Shown: positions 15,536-18,782, numbered from the stretch's first letter. The stretch is 64,000 bases of DNA from an uncultured Methanosarcinales archaeon (GCA_964344755.1 CAYFOH010000002.1:277-64276), one strand, 5' to 3'. Notes: generated by a model from the sequence alone, not told the origin. Made by a program: numbers and translations.

Positions 15536-16393
15536 ATGGACGTAGTAAGGACAAATAGTAAACAATGGCCAAGAAATGTATTAAAAGAATTAGAAACGGC
15601 ACCCCTTAGTAAAGTTAACAAAAATCTTCTTAGAGATTTCAAAAGCTATCTTTTTAGTACTGGTTCAGGAGAAGCAAGAGTTGCCAAAGTGTTAAGTCAG
15701 AGAGTTCGGGAAGCTGCTTGGGATTTTTATATAGAACCGTTTAATTTAGATATACAAAGAGAGTTTATGGATGTTTGTTTGGAAATTCAGAGAACGGTTC
15801 CAGGTAAGGACTCTAGGTCTTTTGGTATAGGGCGAAGAGTTTCTAACACAAGTAAATCTAACCCCCCTAGAAATATTAAAGTGTATACTAAAAGAGGGAT
15901 ATTAGGTTTGAAACAAATTAGCGTTCATGGAAGAGAATTATTAAGAACTGAGAAATATAGTTCAATTATCTGGCATGGATGGCCATTATCCAAGGGTTAT
16001 GTTCTTTTTGCTGGAGGTTCGTTGGATGAATTTGGACATGGCTATGATCTGAGAGACCCACCTCTTAAATCTAAAGAAATTGATTACTACAGTGAGGTGT
16101 TAAAATTAGTAGATAAAGAACCAAGTTACGACAATGCTATTAACCTCTTTAAATCTCTAAAACCACACACTTACAGTTTACCAATGGGGGATTCATATGC
16201 ATCCGCTGATAGAAGGAGTAGGATAAGGATCGTAAGGGAGTTTAGTCAACTTGGTATAGTAGCGAAAATTGATGGACAATTTTACAAAGTACTGATGGAT
16301 TATGCTGAGAGAGATAATCTAAAAAAACTATCTTGCAGAGGGCCTTCTGGAAGTTATGAAGTTAATTTCAAAGAAGGAAAGATACAAACATGA
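15536..16393 (+). CDS. hypothetical protein, paralog A of a tandem pair
   Basis: 285 aa. N-terminal YIEPFNLDIQREFMDVCLEI and C-terminal AKIDGQFYKVLM blocks are shared with the next ORF. Confidence 0.5.
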   Translation: MDVVRTNSKQWPRNVLKELETAPLSKVNKNLLRDFKSYLFSTGSGEARVAKVLSQRVREAAWDFYIEPFNLDIQREFMDVCLEIQRTVPGKDSRSFGIGRRVSNTSKSNPPRNIKVYTKRGILGLKQISVHGRELLRTEKYSSIIWHGWPLSKGYVLFAGGSLDEFGHGYDLRDPPLKSKEIDYYSEVLKLVDKEPSYDNAINLFKSLKPHTYSLPMGDSYASADRRSRIRIVREFSQLGIVAKIDGQFYKVLMDYAERDNLKKLSCRGPSGSYEVNFKEGKIQT

Positions 16394-17103
16394 CTGACTT
16401 AGTAACACGAATCAAAGAAGCCAGTAGAGCTTTGTACTTTGAACCATTTAATAGAGATTGTAGAAAAGAGTTTGTAGCTGTTTGTGAAGAAGCGACTGCT
16501 AATTATCTTTTTACAGATTTTGACGGGTGGATTAGAAGACGTTTTAGGTATGGCCCAAACACAATAATTTCAGTAGAGATTAACAAAAGAATATTTAGAG
16601 AACCGGAGATAAGTTTACTGAAGATAAACAACAAGAACCATTTTCTAGGTGAGATTCAATATAATTTATCTGACCATAAGGATCGATACATTAATTTTAA
16701 CGGTATAGAACGAACAGAAGAAGAGATCAACCATTATAAAAGAGTATTAAAAAACGCAGCGACATCTTGGCGCAGCCCTGATGAAGGTCAACAGTTTCTT
16801 GCAGAACAACTTCTTGCAGCCACTAGTAAATATTTCTTACCAAAAGAAAGTAAGGGTGGAACTGCTAATTACAAAGACAGGCGATGTACGTTGTTTGTTA
16901 GTGAAAGAGAAGTCCCGACAAATAGTTCAATAGAAGAAGCCAACGTAGAAATTGCTATTGATGCAAAGGTTGATGGTGAACATTATCAGGTAGTAATCAC
17001 TGGTAAAGCTTGTGATAAGAAGCCAATCCTAAAAAGTAATAAATTTGAAATTAAAAAAATAGAAGTCACAAGTCCTTTGCCAAAAATAGAAGTCTATTTA
17101 TAA
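16390..17103 (+). CDS. hypothetical protein, paralog B of a tandem pair
   Basis: 237 aa with YFEPFNRDCRKEFVAVCEEA and AKVDGEHYQVVI blocks. Its start overlaps the TGA stop of paralog A (ATGA). Confidence 0.5.
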   Translation: MTDLVTRIKEASRALYFEPFNRDCRKEFVAVCEEATANYLFTDFDGWIRRRFRYGPNTIISVEINKRIFREPEISLLKINNKNHFLGEIQYNLSDHKDRYINFNGIERTEEEINHYKRVLKNAATSWRSPDEGQQFLAEQLLAATSKYFLPKESKGGTANYKDRRCTLFVSEREVPTNSSIEEANVEIAIDAKVDGEHYQVVITGKACDKKPILKSNKFEIKKIEVTSPLPKIEVYL

Positions 17104-17110
17104 ATAAAAA

Positions 17111-18052
17111 ATGGCGCGTGAATTTAGCAACAAAGAGAAAGAATTCATAGAATTAATCTGTCGAGGTTATTCTAATTCGTTAGAATTTCTAAGCCAGTTA
17201 GAGTCTGGTGGTCTGGACTGGGACTTCTTAGTTAAAAGAAGACTGGAATCTGGTTGTCCTGCTCTTTATCTTATTACTACCTTCGCTGGATACAGCACAG
17301 TTGATTCTCAAAAAATGCTAACTGTTCTTAATTCTCTTGAAGAAGATGACACCTACAATGTTGACCCTGGATATGTCATTAAGGCAGCTGACCAGATTAT
17401 TTTATTAGGGGGAGATGAAGACTATTTTCATCGTGTTAATGATCTTGCTTTTGGTGAAAGATGTCTTAGAAATTATTGGGAACAGATAAAAAGTGGTAAT
17501 CTCCACCCTTATGTTTATGGACGAAATTTTACTTTCCATGATCAGTTTTTAGAGGCTCTTGTTAATCAAGGAATAACAACCAAAAGCCAAATAGACCAAG
17601 TAATAGAAAGAATGAATCAAGAAAGAGTAGGAGAATTACATCAAGATGCTTGTATTGAACACGAAAAATATCATACTCCCTTCGCTCAAGACAAAGAAAC
17701 TCTTAAAGATTTTGGCTTCCCGGTTTTTATAGGGAGGTCCGTATTCCCCGAAGGTCATGAAAATTATTGTGAGATTACCTCAACTGGACACACTGGTTTT
17801 GCTTCTCTTTCTACTGCTGTAAATATGTTATGGAATAATGTTTGTACACAAAGAAGGGTTTTACTTACAAAAGACCCCGGTCATCTTCCAAGTAAAGACC
17901 TTAGTGCACGTGATCTTAAAGCTTTTACAGAACAACAATTAGGGATGATTTGGCAATCTTTTGAAGAAAACCATTATGGTAAACTTGCTTTGTTAAGAGG
18001 TTATGAGCATCCTTTGTCTTATCAACCCGAAGAGATAGAACTTGTTAATTAA
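17111..18052 (+). CDS. hypothetical protein
   Basis: 313-aa ORF 8 nt after paralog B. Several His/Cys-containing blocks (HTPF, GHENYCEITSTGHTG) but no recognised family. Confidence 0.45.
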   Translation: MAREFSNKEKEFIELICRGYSNSLEFLSQLESGGLDWDFLVKRRLESGCPALYLITTFAGYSTVDSQKMLTVLNSLEEDDTYNVDPGYVIKAADQIILLGGDEDYFHRVNDLAFGERCLRNYWEQIKSGNLHPYVYGRNFTFHDQFLEALVNQGITTKSQIDQVIERMNQERVGELHQDACIEHEKYHTPFAQDKETLKDFGFPVFIGRSVFPEGHENYCEITSTGHTGFASLSTAVNMLWNNVCTQRRVLLTKDPGHLPSKDLSARDLKAFTEQQLGMIWQSFEENHYGKLALLRGYEHPLSYQPEEIELVN

Positions 18053-18125
18053 TCTTGTTTAGTTAGAAAAAAAGAGCAAAATTGACCAAATTATTTATAA
18101 ACAGGAGCAAGTGTGAACGCCTAAA

Positions 18126-18782
18126 ATGAACATGAAAAAAGTGTATGAAATAAGGCACGATAAAGAAACACCTTTGATAGGCGTAATTGGAGCTACTAAC
18201 CCTTCAGCAGATTACACTAAGATCCTTGGGCGTAAAGTAGGTTATGCCCTTAGAGAATTTATTGATGATAAACACGGAACTATCTTTACTGGTGGAGTTA
18301 AAGGCGTGGGCGTTGATGTTTATTCTGGAGTTGTACGGTTTTGTTACAAAAAAGAAGGTGACCCACAACATCGTTTCTTTGTTCTTGTTCCAGAAAAAGT
18401 AAATAAAAAATCTTATCATCCACCAACTAATTATGATGTTCTAGGTTGTCTTTCCCCTGAAGGTAAGCTAAATGTTGTTAGATCTGGTCAAAGCATGGTT
18501 GAAAGAAGATCTCATCTAGCTGCAACAGCCGACGCTCTGGTTGTGATAAATGGAGGAAATGGAACTTTAGAAGAAGCTATGCTTTCAGCTAATTATGAAA
18601 TTCCAATTATTGTAATGAATAATTCTGGAGGAGCTGCTAAAATTTTGTCTTCATACAAAGAGAATAGAAGAACGATAACTAGTGAAAACTCAAGAATTAA
18701 TCTAAGGTTAATCGATCCAGATAATATTCATCCTTGTGATAGTATTGAGATTCTTAAATCTACACTAGAAGATCTTCTTTAA
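18126..18782 (+). CDS. SLOG-superfamily Rossmann-fold protein (TIGR00725 / LOG-like family)
   Basis: IGVIGATNP, FTGGVKGVG and VINGGNGTLEE match the GGxxG and PGGxGTxEE signatures of the LOG/TIGR00725 nucleotide-binding family. Confidence 0.6.
   Translation: MNMKKVYEIRHDKETPLIGVIGATNPSADYTKILGRKVGYALREFIDDKHGTIFTGGVKGVGVDVYSGVVRFCYKKEGDPQHRFFVLVPEKVNKKSYHPPTNYDVLGCLSPEGKLNVVRSGQSMVERRSHLAATADALVVINGGNGTLEEAMLSANYEIPIIVMNNSGGAAKILSSYKENRRTITSENSRINLRLIDPDNIHPCDSIEILKSTLEDLL

What the first reader, a model, noticed from the sequence alone, without database searches (positions are those of the whole stretch)
15536..18782. tRNA-Glu-adjacent four-gene operon of unknown function: tandem paralogs, an orphan gene and a SLOG-domain protein
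Directly downstream of tRNA-Glu and its hairpin lie four tightly spaced plus-strand genes with no recognisable housekeeping role. Two are tandem paralogs sharing YxEPFNxDxxxEF and AKxDGxxYxVxx blocks, with an ATGA stop/start overlap. Next is a 313-aa orphan with His/Cys-rich blocks. Last is a TIGR00725/LOG-like SLOG Rossmann protein (GGxxG ... PGGxGTxEE). tRNA 3' flanks are classic integration sites, and SLOG domains recur as nucleotide-signal sensors or processors in prokaryotic conflict systems. The cluster could be an uncharacterised nucleotide-signalling or defence module.
Basis: inference. Interest (0 to 1): 0.55.

Follow-up and report, generated by a model that had tools for sequence, protein, structure and literature searches.

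The report
Lineage-specific gene cluster beside tRNA-Glu
Four real genes sit after a tRNA-Glu in a tiny DPANN archaeon: two duplicated genes found nowhere else, a member of a rare uncharacterised family, and a LOG-like nucleotide-processing enzyme. They are found only in this lineage, but nothing shows they work together as a defence or signalling system or arrived on a mobile element.

Summary
tRNA-Glu(UUC), a stable hairpin and four plus-strand ORFs lie at the stated coordinates. g1 and g2 are paralogs with an ATGA overlap. g4 is a SLOG cluster-4 (PF18306) protein with invariant LOG-type Arg/Glu residues. One correction: g3 is not an orphan. It belongs to a tiny family (9 hits among 1.8 billion representatives) with no detectable fold relative.

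The host is a Woesearchaeota-like DPANN archaeon. In 11 relatives the backbone DUF5652-RimK-RimB-(tRNA-Glu)...RNase D is kept, but none carries g1-g4. So the cluster is accessory.

There is no sign of an integrated element: no integrase, no att repeat, native composition and codon usage, and no viral, PHROG or PADLOC match.

The four genes are never co-conserved. The g4 family is adjacent to a phosphoribosyltransferase gene in every evaluable locus (about 16 distinct contigs), which points to nucleotide metabolism. The window lacks that partner. g3 relatives have unrelated neighbours.

A TATA box at the genome-typical -32 position suggests g4 is transcribed separately from g1-g2-g3.

Verdict: an ordinary lineage-specific cluster of hypothetical genes beside a LOG-like enzyme. 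Low interest.

The parts
15366..15440 (+). tRNA-Glu (anticodon UUC). It is part of the conserved RimK-RimB-tRNA-Glu backbone and marks the left edge of the variable segment.
   Evidence: ARAGORN. Rfam RF00005, 51.4 bits. tRNA-Glu-like sequence lies beside RimB in 9 of 11 syntenic relatives. The alignment with L023 loses similarity right at the tRNA 3' end.
15452..15485 (+). Stable hairpin followed by a U-rich tract. It is probably a tRNA 3' processing or termination signal (inferred).
   Evidence: strand folding: -14.4 kcal/mol, z = -3.98, 0 of 200 shuffles as stable. It is absent from L023.
15503..15509 (+). TATA-like box (TTTAAAA) 33 nt upstream of the g1 start. It is the candidate promoter of a g1-g2-g3 unit.
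   Evidence: Positional enrichment of TATA-like motifs 21-40 nt upstream of ORF starts in this window (36 of 59 occurrences). g1 has motifs at -33 and -47. The promoter role is inferred.
15536..16393 (+). g1: 285-aa basic (pI 9.6) soluble protein with no relative found outside this strain. It is a paralog of g2 with an extra N-terminal extension of about 50 aa.
   Evidence: ORF. Only a self-hit among 5.8 billion proteins. No Pfam, NCBIfam, PADLOC or PHROG match. No PDB match. Paralogy. Properties.
16390..17103 (+). g2: 237-aa paralog of g1. Its start overlaps the g1 stop (ATGA), so it is probably translationally coupled to g1.
   Evidence: No relatives found with the g1/g2 profile in the viral or metagenome scans, or in any fetched locus. 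The AF2 model is unusable, pLDDT 43.7.
17111..18052 (+). g3: 313-aa acidic (pI 5.0) protein of a rare, uncharacterised family. The one taxonomically named member, and every gene context I inspected, is archaeal (DPANN-type). It has an N-terminal all-helical domain (about residues 1-187) and a C-terminal alpha/beta domain (about 198-300). The family-conserved motifs (F191, D200, G202, F206, G208, R209, L251, P256, G257, P301) lie in the C-terminal part (about 190-301).
18094..18100 (+). TATA-like box (TTTATAA) 32 nt upstream of the g4 start, inside the 73-nt g3-g4 spacer. It is the candidate independent promoter for g4.
   Evidence: the motif lies in the genome-typical 21-40 nt peak. RNase D has the same motif at -28. 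The promoter role is inferred.
18126..18782 (+). g4: 218-aa SLOG cluster-4 (LOG-like Rossmannoid) protein with an intact glycine-rich loop and LOG-type Arg/Glu residues. It is predicted to be a nucleotide N-glycosidase (phosphoribohydrolase-type) enzyme. Here it lacks the adjacent PRTase partner gene that accompanies its relatives.
   Evidence: PF18306 37.5 bits (gathering score 26.3) and PF03641 30.2 bits (gathering score 27). Alignment to plant LOG 2a33 over MHQRK...GGYGTLEE. Invariant R127, R128 and E150, and FTGGVxGVGxDVY, in 10 family members. PRTase adjacent in relatives. No PRTase partner in the window.

Best explanation
This is a lineage-specific accessory stretch of a Woesearchaeota-like (DPANN) archaeal chromosome. 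It fills the variable space between a conserved DUF5652-RimK-RimB-tRNA-Glu block and RNase D. It is most likely two transcription units that happen to be neighbours, not one functional module.

Unit 1 is g1-g2-g3.
- g1 and g2 are two translationally coupled tandem paralogs. They are basic, soluble, and have no relative outside this strain. As recent duplicates read from one message, they probably form a hetero-oligomer.
- g3 is an acidic protein of a rare family with a helical scaffold domain and a small conserved alpha/beta domain.
- The biochemical role of unit 1 cannot be assigned. I infer a soluble cytoplasmic protein complex specific to this lineage.

Unit 2 is g4, a LOG-like SLOG cluster-4 enzyme.
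- By analogy with LOG/PpnN-type enzymes, it would cleave the N-glycosidic bond of a nucleoside 5'-monophosphate-type substrate.
- In other DPANN archaea its orthologs are tightly paired with a dedicated phosphoribosyltransferase. That pairing implies a base-exchange or salvage-type nucleotide pathway rather than signal sensing. Here the partner gene is missing from the locus.

Shown: gene structure, paralogy, family assignments, absence from relatives, absence of mobility and defence signatures, and the SLOG-PRTase linkage. Inferred: the transcription units, hetero-oligomer formation, and the enzymatic activity of g4.
For: Lineage and accessory status:
- The 80 RNase D loci are all Woesearchaeota/Nanoarchaeota MAGs.
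- The backbone is kept in 11 of them. The RimB-RNase D gap ranges from 482 to 4290 nt and is usually filled by a 306-aa gene plus a DUF444 gene.
- No relative has g1-g4, by tblastn at 1e-4 or by profile HMMs at E <= 1.

No sign of recent transfer or a mobile element:
- No att repeat.
- No integrase within 7111-26368.
- Cluster GC is 0.343-0.362 against a window mean of 0.340 +/- 0.027. Codon-usage distance is 0.69-0.99 against 0.85 +/- 0.19.
- No PHROG, viral or phage hits for any of the four, and no plasmid hit for g3, the only one tested there.

Two transcription units:
- TATA-like motifs peak 21-40 nt upstream of starts (36 of 59 occurrences).
- g4 has one at -32 and g1 at -33. g2 has none, and g3 has one only at -14.

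g4 as an enzyme linked to a PRTase:
- Pfam matches above the gathering scores.
- The catalytic Arg and Glu of LOG align and are invariant in the family.
- A PRTase partner lies directly upstream in the 4 loci-25/27 and in 12 of 15 evaluable loci. The other 3 have a PRTase-like gene directly downstream. A few contigs appear in both sets, leaving about 16 distinct contigs.
- SLOG-PRTase gene pairing is a published theme (PMC6459960, citing Burroughs et al. 2015).

No co-conservation:
- g3 homologs sit beside MscL and a methyltransferase, a metallophosphatase and topoisomerase I, or unknown genes.
- No SLOG locus has a g1/g2- or g3-like gene.
Against: - The four genes share a strand and are closely spaced. 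Read-through from g3 into g4 cannot be excluded, because no transcript data exist.
- The closest available relatives are distant (RimK 73% identity at most, RNase D 54% at most). Presence or absence within the genus is untested.
- Synteny downstream of RNase D is also poorly conserved. The 'variable slot' may therefore reflect general rearrangement rather than a special hotspot.
- g4 is the only member of its family seen without an adjacent PRTase. It could have been recruited to new partners.
- g1, g2 and g3 have no functional annotation at all, so a shared role with g4 is not disproved.
- The activity of g4 is inferred from two conserved residues and family membership only.
Confidence: 0.6

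Rival explanations
1. The cluster is a single four-gene conflict (defence) or nucleotide-signalling module. The SLOG protein g4 senses or processes a nucleotide second messenger, and g1-g3 act as novel generators or effectors.
For: - SLOG domains act as sensors in Thoeris-type systems (PMC9503650, PMC7272460).
- g4 gives weak superfamily-level matches to STALD/ThsA and ThcA models.
- The four genes are co-directional, accessory and lineage-specific.
- g4 has uniquely lost the PRTase neighbour typical of its family.
Against: - The matches to defence models are far below threshold: ThcA 15.7 bits against a cut-off of 110, and PADLOC E = 0.02-0.03.
- No TIR, SIR2, nuclease, transmembrane or other effector domain is found in g1-g3.
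- g4 retains LOG catalytic residues. Its relatives sit beside housekeeping genes together with a PRTase.
- The families never co-occur elsewhere.
- g4 probably has its own promoter.
Confidence: 0.1
2. The cluster is the decayed remnant of a virus, plasmid or integrative element that once inserted at the 3' side of tRNA-Glu. It has since lost its integrase and att sites and has drifted to host composition.
For: - The left synteny breakpoint against the closest relative falls exactly at the tRNA 3' end.
- The content of the slot differs among relatives.
- g1 and g2 have no homologs anywhere, as is common for archaeal mobile-element genes.
- DPANN viruses are barely represented in the databases (my own knowledge).
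Against: - No integrase or recombinase, no direct repeat of the tRNA end, and no compositional or codon deviation.
- No match in IMG/VR, GenBank phages, PHROGs or BFVD for the families tested, and none in plasmids for g3.
- Relatives of g4 and g3 are chromosomal genes in ordinary contexts.
- Synteny is generally low at this evolutionary distance.
Confidence: 0.15
3. g1 and g2 (and possibly g3) are not functional genes. They would be fast-decaying or spurious ORFs, and only g4 would matter.
For: - g1 and g2 have no homologs.
- The structure prediction for g2 failed, pLDDT 43.7.
- The three metagenome assemblies carry no polymorphism, so purifying selection cannot be shown.
Against: - Open frames of 285 and 237 codons are extremely unlikely by chance at 35% GC (my own estimate, about 0.003 expected per window).
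- Two collinear conserved blocks survive between the paralogs.
- Codon usage is native.
- The overlap and spacing are compact and operon-like.
- g3 has full-length homologs and a confident fold.
Confidence: 0.05

Closest known systems
LOG / 'possible lysine decarboxylase' family (PF03641; cytokinin riboside 5'-monophosphate phosphoribohydrolase; PpnN-type nucleotide nucleosidases)
   Same: - Rossmannoid SLOG fold signature.
- A glycine-rich loop (TGGVKGVG).
- A GGxGTxxE motif whose Glu, and the upstream Arg (MVERR against MHQRK), align to the LOG catalytic residues. Both are invariant in the g4 family.
- PF03641 scores 30.2 bits, above its gathering score of 27.
   Different: - The match covers only 37 residues of the PF03641 model.
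- The motif begins with N, not P.
- TIGR00730 (21 bits against 96) and the cytokinin LOG equivalog NF058542 (13.7 bits against 300) are far below their cut-offs.
- The substrate is unknown.
- The family is a separate SLOG clade (PF18306).
SLOG cluster 4 (PF18306) / TIGR00725 proteins paired with a phosphoribosyltransferase in DPANN archaea
   Same: g4 is 39-44% identical over most of its length to this archaeal group. It shares all of the group's invariant residues.
   Different: - In relatives a PRTase of 281-311 aa (helical N-domain plus PF00156) lies immediately upstream and often overlaps. In three loci a PRTase-like gene lies downstream, with a GT9 gene upstream.
- The window has no such gene. 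g3, which occupies the upstream position, is unrelated to it (hhalign probability 0.8%).
- TIGR00725 scores only 32.3 bits against a cut-off of 106.9.
Thoeris-type SLOG sensors (ThsA STALD domain; type III ThcA)
   Same: Same superfamily. There are weak hits to STALD (PF18185, E = 0.02), PADLOC ThsA (E = 0.02-0.03) and ThcA (E = 0.009).
   Different: - All hits are far below the family thresholds.
- There is no fused SIR2, transmembrane or Macro effector.
- There is no TIR (ThsB) gene nearby.
- The LOG-type catalytic residues are retained.
- Relatives lie in housekeeping contexts.
tRNA-associated genomic islands and integrated archaeal elements
   Same: The cluster lies immediately 3' of a tRNA gene. 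Its gene content varies between related genomes and is dominated by hypothetical genes.
   Different: There is no integrase, no att direct repeat and no compositional signature. The tRNA itself is part of the conserved backbone.

Membership tests
SLOG superfamily, cluster 4 (Pfam PF18306 LDcluster4) | Whole-protein score above Pfam's gathering threshold | tested here: met
   37.5 bits against a gathering score of 26.3, E = 2.3e-09. The precomputed annotation agrees.
SLOG superfamily, cluster 4 (Pfam PF18306 LDcluster4) | Conserved glycine-rich nucleotide-binding loop and GGxGTxxE motif shared with close homologs | tested here: met
   FTGGVxGVGxDVY, R127/R128 and NGGxGTxxE150 are invariant in the 10-sequence alignment A6.
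LOG family proper (TIGR00730 / cytokinin riboside 5'-monophosphate phosphoribohydrolase, NF058542) | Score above the NCBIfam curated cut-off | tested here: not met
   TIGR00730 scores 21 bits against 96.35. NF058542 scores 13.7 bits against 300.
LOG family proper (TIGR00730 / cytokinin riboside 5'-monophosphate phosphoribohydrolase, NF058542) | PGGxGTxxE motif with a catalytic Glu and an upstream catalytic Arg | tested here: inconclusive
   NGGNGTLEE (P replaced by N) and MVERR align to GGYGTLEE and MHQRK of plant LOG 2a33, and both residues are conserved. The motif alone does not prove LOG activity (PMC8989509).
LOG family proper (TIGR00730 / cytokinin riboside 5'-monophosphate phosphoribohydrolase, NF058542) | Phosphoribohydrolase activity on a nucleoside 5'-monophosphate | not testable with these tools
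   This needs an enzyme assay.
TIGR00725 family | Score above the curated cut-off | tested here: not met
   32.3 bits against 106.9. Only model positions 77-135 of 159 are matched.
DPANN PRTase-SLOG gene pair | A PF00156-type phosphoribosyltransferase gene directly adjacent to the SLOG gene | tested here: not met
   It is present in every evaluable relative locus, about 16 distinct contigs. It is absent from the whole 64-kb window by tblastn at E <= 1 and by profile HMM at E <= 1. g3 is not a PRTase.
Thoeris (ThsA/ThsB; type III ThcA) | SLOG/STALD domain scoring above the family threshold | tested here: not met
   PF18185 scores 14.8 bits against 24. ThcA scores 15.7 bits against 110. PADLOC ThsA gives E = 0.02-0.03.
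Thoeris (ThsA/ThsB; type III ThcA) | An associated TIR-domain signal generator and an NADase or membrane effector | tested here: not met
   g1-g3 and the flanking genes have no TIR, SIR2, Macro or transmembrane domain.
tRNA-integrated genomic island or provirus | Integrase or recombinase gene at an island edge | tested here: not met
   No such family appears among genes from 7111 to 26368 (precomputed Pfam). g1-g4 have no integrase hit.
tRNA-integrated genomic island or provirus | Direct repeat of the tRNA 3' end (attL/attR) bounding the island | tested here: not met
   The 23-nt tRNA 3' end has no second match in the window with up to 3 mismatches. No relevant direct repeat lies in 15300-26000.
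tRNA-integrated genomic island or provirus | Atypical composition or codon usage | tested here: not met
   GC, GC3 and codon-usage distance of g1-g4 are within about 1 to 1.6 sd of the window's 59 ORFs. The GC profile is flat.
tRNA-integrated genomic island or provirus | Presence/absence polymorphism among related genomes at the same site | tested here: met
   All 11 syntenic relatives lack g1-g4 and carry other genes or nothing in the slot. However, these relatives are distant (RimK 73% identity at most).
Single operon (four genes, one transcript) | Same strand, short gaps and no internal promoter | tested here: inconclusive
   The g1/g2 overlap and the 7-nt g2-g3 gap fit one operon. The 73-nt g3-g4 gap holds a TATA-like box at the genome-typical -32 position. 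No transcript data exist.

The most novel reading that the evidence does not exclude
g1-g2-g3, possibly together with a LOG-like SLOG enzyme that has been uncoupled from its ancestral PRTase partner, could form a previously undescribed DPANN-specific accessory system. Examples would be antiviral, anti-plasmid or host-interaction functions built from protein folds with no known relatives. The system would have been inserted next to tRNA-Glu in place of the DUF444 gene pair found in relatives.
Probability: 0.1. Interest if true: 0.55.

Novelty: new member of a known kind. Interest (0 to 1): 0.22.

Why it matters
As it stands, this matters little. DPANN genomes are full of lineage-specific hypothetical genes, and this cluster shows no signature that sets it apart as a system.

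Two by-products may be useful:
1. There is a tight and apparently universal PRTase-SLOG cluster-4 gene pair in DPANN archaea. It points to an uncharacterised nucleotide base-exchange or salvage step in organisms that depend on scavenged nucleotides.
2. The g3 family is a small, confidently folding family with no structural relatives, which makes it a candidate new fold.

If the cluster did turn out to be a coherent conflict system, it would be one of very few known in DPANN archaea. The present evidence gives that only a low probability.

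Tried and rejected
1. g3 as a divergent version of the PRTase partner that precedes SLOG genes in relatives. Rejected: it lacks the whole PRPP-binding core in the alignment. hhalign gives 0.8% probability. It has no PF00156 hit.

2. att-site search. The tRNA 3' end with up to 3 mismatches, and direct repeats over 15300-26000, gave nothing relevant.

3. Viral or mobile origin.
   - PHROGs: nothing.
   - IMG/VR scans with the g1/g2, g3 and SLOG profiles: nothing.
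   - GenBank phages with g1, g2 and g3, and plasmids with g3: nothing.
   - BFVD fold search for g3: nothing.

4. Remote homologs of g1/g2.
   - The word-seeded search found only the self-hit.
   - The metagenome scan with the paralog profile found nothing.
   - PDB sequence and profile searches gave only noise.

5. Structure of g2 from the two-sequence alignment. pLDDT was 43.7, so the model was unusable and no fold search was run.

6. Fold of g3.
   - Foldseek against the PDB: best TM about 0.18, E > 0.01.
   - The afdb50 library was unavailable.
   - The C-terminal domain could not be searched on its own.

7. dN/dS from metagenome variants. The three assemblies are identical over the region.

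8. A loose impression that the g1 N-terminal extension resembles an integrase SAM-like domain. No Pfam or NCBIfam support at E <= 1, so I dropped it.

9. Literature on SLOG cluster 4 / TIGR00725. Nothing specific is held. Burroughs et al. 2015 could not be read.

Full report
**1. What is there**

ARAGORN finds tRNA-Glu(UUC) at 15366-15440 on the + strand, and Rfam confirms it. The 60 nt downstream fold into a hairpin at about 15452-15485. Its energy is -14.4 kcal/mol, z = -3.98 against shuffles, and a U-rich tract follows.

Four plus-strand ORFs follow at exactly the stated coordinates:

| Gene | Coordinates | Length |
|---|---|---|
| g1 | 15536-16393 | 285 aa |
| g2 | 16390-17103 | 237 aa |
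| g3 | 17111-18052 | 313 aa |
| g4 | 18126-18782 | 218 aa |

- g1 and g2 overlap by ATGA.
- The g2-g3 gap is 7 nt and the g3-g4 gap is 73 nt.
- At about 35% GC, open frames this long are not expected by chance (my own estimate, about 0.003 per window).
- Independent gene callers called all four.

**2. Paralogy**

- BLASTP of g1 against g2 gives E = 2e-07 over a 31-aa block (YxEPFNxDxxxEF).
- A global alignment shows further collinear blocks, and g1 carries an extra N-terminal extension of about 50 aa.
- In shuffle tests the overall local score has z = 8.8. The C-terminal AKxDGxxYxV block has z = 4.3, reached by 2 of 500 shuffles.
- The tandem-paralog claim therefore stands.

**3. Family assignments**

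*g4*
- It passes Pfam gathering thresholds for PF18306 (SLOG cluster 4, 37.5 bits against 26.3) and PF03641 (30.2 bits against 27).
- It fails the curated NCBIfam cut-offs for TIGR00725, TIGR00730, the cytokinin LOG equivalog and Thoeris ThcA.
- PADLOC gives only E = 0.02-0.03 STALD noise.
- Its MVERR...NGGNGTLEE segment aligns to MHQRK...GGYGTLEE of plant LOG 2a33.
- R127, R128, E150 and the FTGGVxGVGxDVY loop are invariant across ten family members. This is consistent with an active LOG-like enzyme rather than a degenerate sensor.

*g1, g2 and g3*
- None has a Pfam, NCBIfam, PADLOC, PHROG or PDB sequence match.

*g1*
- Its only hit among 5.8 billion clustered proteins is itself.
- The g1/g2 profile finds nothing in IMG/VR or JGI metagenomes.

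*g3*
- It found nothing in the word-seeded search.
- The exhaustive HMMER scan of 1.84 billion representatives found nine relatives. The best is P0012: 307 aa, 33% identity, E = 2.8e-39.
- P0012 comes from a Candidatus Woesearchaeota MAG.
- The family shares the motifs DHTPF, DYGFHxFIGR, RKVLLSKSPG and NPFxYQP.
- AlphaFold2 with this alignment gives pLDDT 82 and pTM 0.67. The model has an N-terminal helical domain and a C-terminal alpha/beta domain.

*g2 structure and bulk properties*
- The g2 model was unusable, pLDDT 44.
- g1 and g2 are basic and g3 is acidic. None has a hydrophobic segment.

**4. Who carries it**

- The exact proteins occur only in three samples of one project (PRJEB17505) and one NCBI MAG contig. 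Gene order and sequence are identical in all of them.
- A scan of species-representative genomes with the adjacent RNase D returned 80 loci. All are from Woesearchaeota/Nanoarchaeota-type MAGs, at 40-54% identity.
- The DPANN guess is therefore right.

**5. Core or accessory?**

- I mapped all neighbouring window genes onto those 80 loci. In 11 of them DUF5652, RimK and/or RimB lie next to RNase D (8 have DUF5652, 10 RimK, all 11 RimB; some loci are cut at a contig end).
- The RimB-RNase D gap ranges from 482 and 516 nt (L057, L064) up to 4290 nt (L039).
- In 7 of the 11 the gap holds a minus-strand pair of about 300 aa and 380-390 aa. In L023 these are a 306-aa protein with no Pfam match and a DUF444 protein.
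- In some relatives the gap also holds a peptidase M10, a polysaccharide deacetylase, or DoxX.
- A tRNA-Glu-like sequence lies beside RimB in 9 of the 11.
- The alignment with the closest relative, L023, keeps the tRNA and its upstream region and loses similarity exactly at the tRNA 3' end.
- No relative has any g1-g4 homolog, by tblastn at 1e-4 or by profile HMMs at E <= 1 over all 125 fetched loci.
- So g1-g4 is accessory at this site, and the tRNA belongs to the backbone.

Caveats: these relatives are distant, and synteny downstream of RNase D is also not kept.

**6. Island signatures**

- No second copy of the tRNA 3' end exists anywhere in the window, allowing up to 3 mismatches.
- There are no relevant direct repeats.
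- No integrase or transposase lies among genes from 7111 to 26368.
- GC, GC3 and codon usage of g1-g4 lie inside the window's distribution.
- No viral or phage relatives were found for any family tested, and no plasmid relative for g3.

**7. Is it one module?**

*From the SLOG side*
- Four long contigs carrying g4 homologs all have a tightly coupled protein of 281-311 aa directly upstream. It combines a helical N-domain with a PF00156 phosphoribosyltransferase domain.
- These contigs lie in ordinary archaeal contexts such as gyrase, SerRS, ScpAB, FtsZ and Spt5.
- A metagenome scan added 27 loci. Of the 15 closer homologs with upstream sequence available, 12 have this PRTase upstream.
- The other 3 have GT9, then SLOG, then a PRTase-like gene downstream.
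- None has a g1/g2- or g3-like neighbour.
- The window has no PRTase partner anywhere, and g3 is unrelated to it.

*From the g3 side*
- Homologs sit next to MscL and a methyltransferase (L013), next to a metallophosphatase and topoisomerase I (L094), or among unknown genes (L097). None is near a SLOG gene.

*Transcription*
- TATA-like boxes in this window are sharply enriched 21-40 nt upstream of start codons (36 of 59 occurrences).
- g4 has one at -32 in the 73-nt gap, RNase D at -28 and g1 at -33. g2 has none, and g3 has one only at -14.
- The likeliest organisation is therefore [g1-g2-g3] and [g4].

**8. Interpretation**

The best-supported reading is a lineage-specific accessory stretch made of two neighbouring units.
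- Unit 1 encodes two translationally coupled paralogs and a rare-family protein. It is probably a soluble complex of unknown role.
- Unit 2 is a LOG-like SLOG cluster-4 enzyme. Its family is otherwise wedded to a PRTase, which suggests nucleotide base-exchange or salvage chemistry.
- SLOG-PRTase coupling is a described theme for another SLOG clade (PMC6459960).
- The general split of SLOG domains into LOG-like enzymes and sensor-type domains is reviewed in PMC9503650.
- The PGGxGTxxE motif does not by itself fix the substrate (PMC8989509).

The evidence gathered does not support the defence or signalling module reading, or the integrated-element reading, although neither is strictly excluded.

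**9. Verdict**

A single operon, a tRNA-integrated island and a defence module are not supported.
- Novelty: a new member of a known kind (the SLOG enzyme), next to hypothetical genes restricted to this lineage.
- Interest is low.

Noticed in passing
L006:1089-2746, L008:7105-8717, L010:7154-8660, L012:7064-8729, and L099-L112: There is a tight, often overlapping gene pair in DPANN archaea: a protein of 281-311 aa (helical N-domain plus PF00156 phosphoribosyltransferase) followed by a SLOG cluster-4 protein. It is present in every evaluable close homolog locus. It looks like an uncharacterised two-enzyme nucleotide pathway.
   Followed up: partly
L113:451-3160, L114:1045-3635, L115:583-3328: This is a variant arrangement of the same SLOG family: a GT9 heptosyltransferase-like gene, then the SLOG gene, then a weakly PRTase-like gene of 320-374 aa. 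All three overlap or abut.
   Followed up: partly
L117 (whole 12471 nt), L118:1-7650, L119:1-7059, L122:1-11619, and also L120, L121, L123, L124: SLOG cluster-4-like domains are embedded in giant uninterrupted ORFs, thousands of residues long, on metagenome contigs. The organism and the rest of the architecture were not examined.
   Followed up: no
L023:6463-9881, and the equivalent gaps in L026, L028, L035, L039, L043 and L044: In most syntenic Woesearchaeota relatives the slot between RimB/tRNA-Glu and RNase D holds a conserved minus-strand pair. In L023 these are a 306-aa protein with no Pfam match and a DUF444 (YeaH-like) protein. Neither is encoded anywhere in the window.
   Followed up: partly
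window:24382-24667: A 54-nt tandem repeat of 4-5 copies at 82-85% identity lies inside the minus-strand ORF 24377-24949 (190 aa). This ORF also has the window's most deviant codon usage among ORFs of similar size.
   Followed up: no
window:21060-22691 (- strand): This is a 543-aa protein with no Pfam family. Its C-terminus (…LGGHGQPYELKL…IFIYSCSTAQ…) is reminiscent, from memory only, of a caspase/CHAT-type His-Cys dyad.
   Followed up: no
window:11531-13570 (- strand): A single 679-aa ORF fuses an amino-acid permease to a SAM-dependent methyltransferase domain (precomputed Pfam). This is an unusual architecture.
   Followed up: no
L035:597-630, L034:10589-10622, L031:6588-6616, L026:2190-2217: The tRNA-Glu matches beside RimB in several relatives are only partial (tRNA positions 7-40 or 16-44), and ARAGORN in bacterial mode missed them. 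They may be intron-containing or otherwise divergent tRNA genes.
   Followed up: no
L031:6641-7099 (- strand): A weak LAGLIDADG-like ORF (PF14528, E = 0.0034) occupies the RNase D-RimB slot in one relative. This hints at occasional selfish-element traffic at this position.
   Followed up: no
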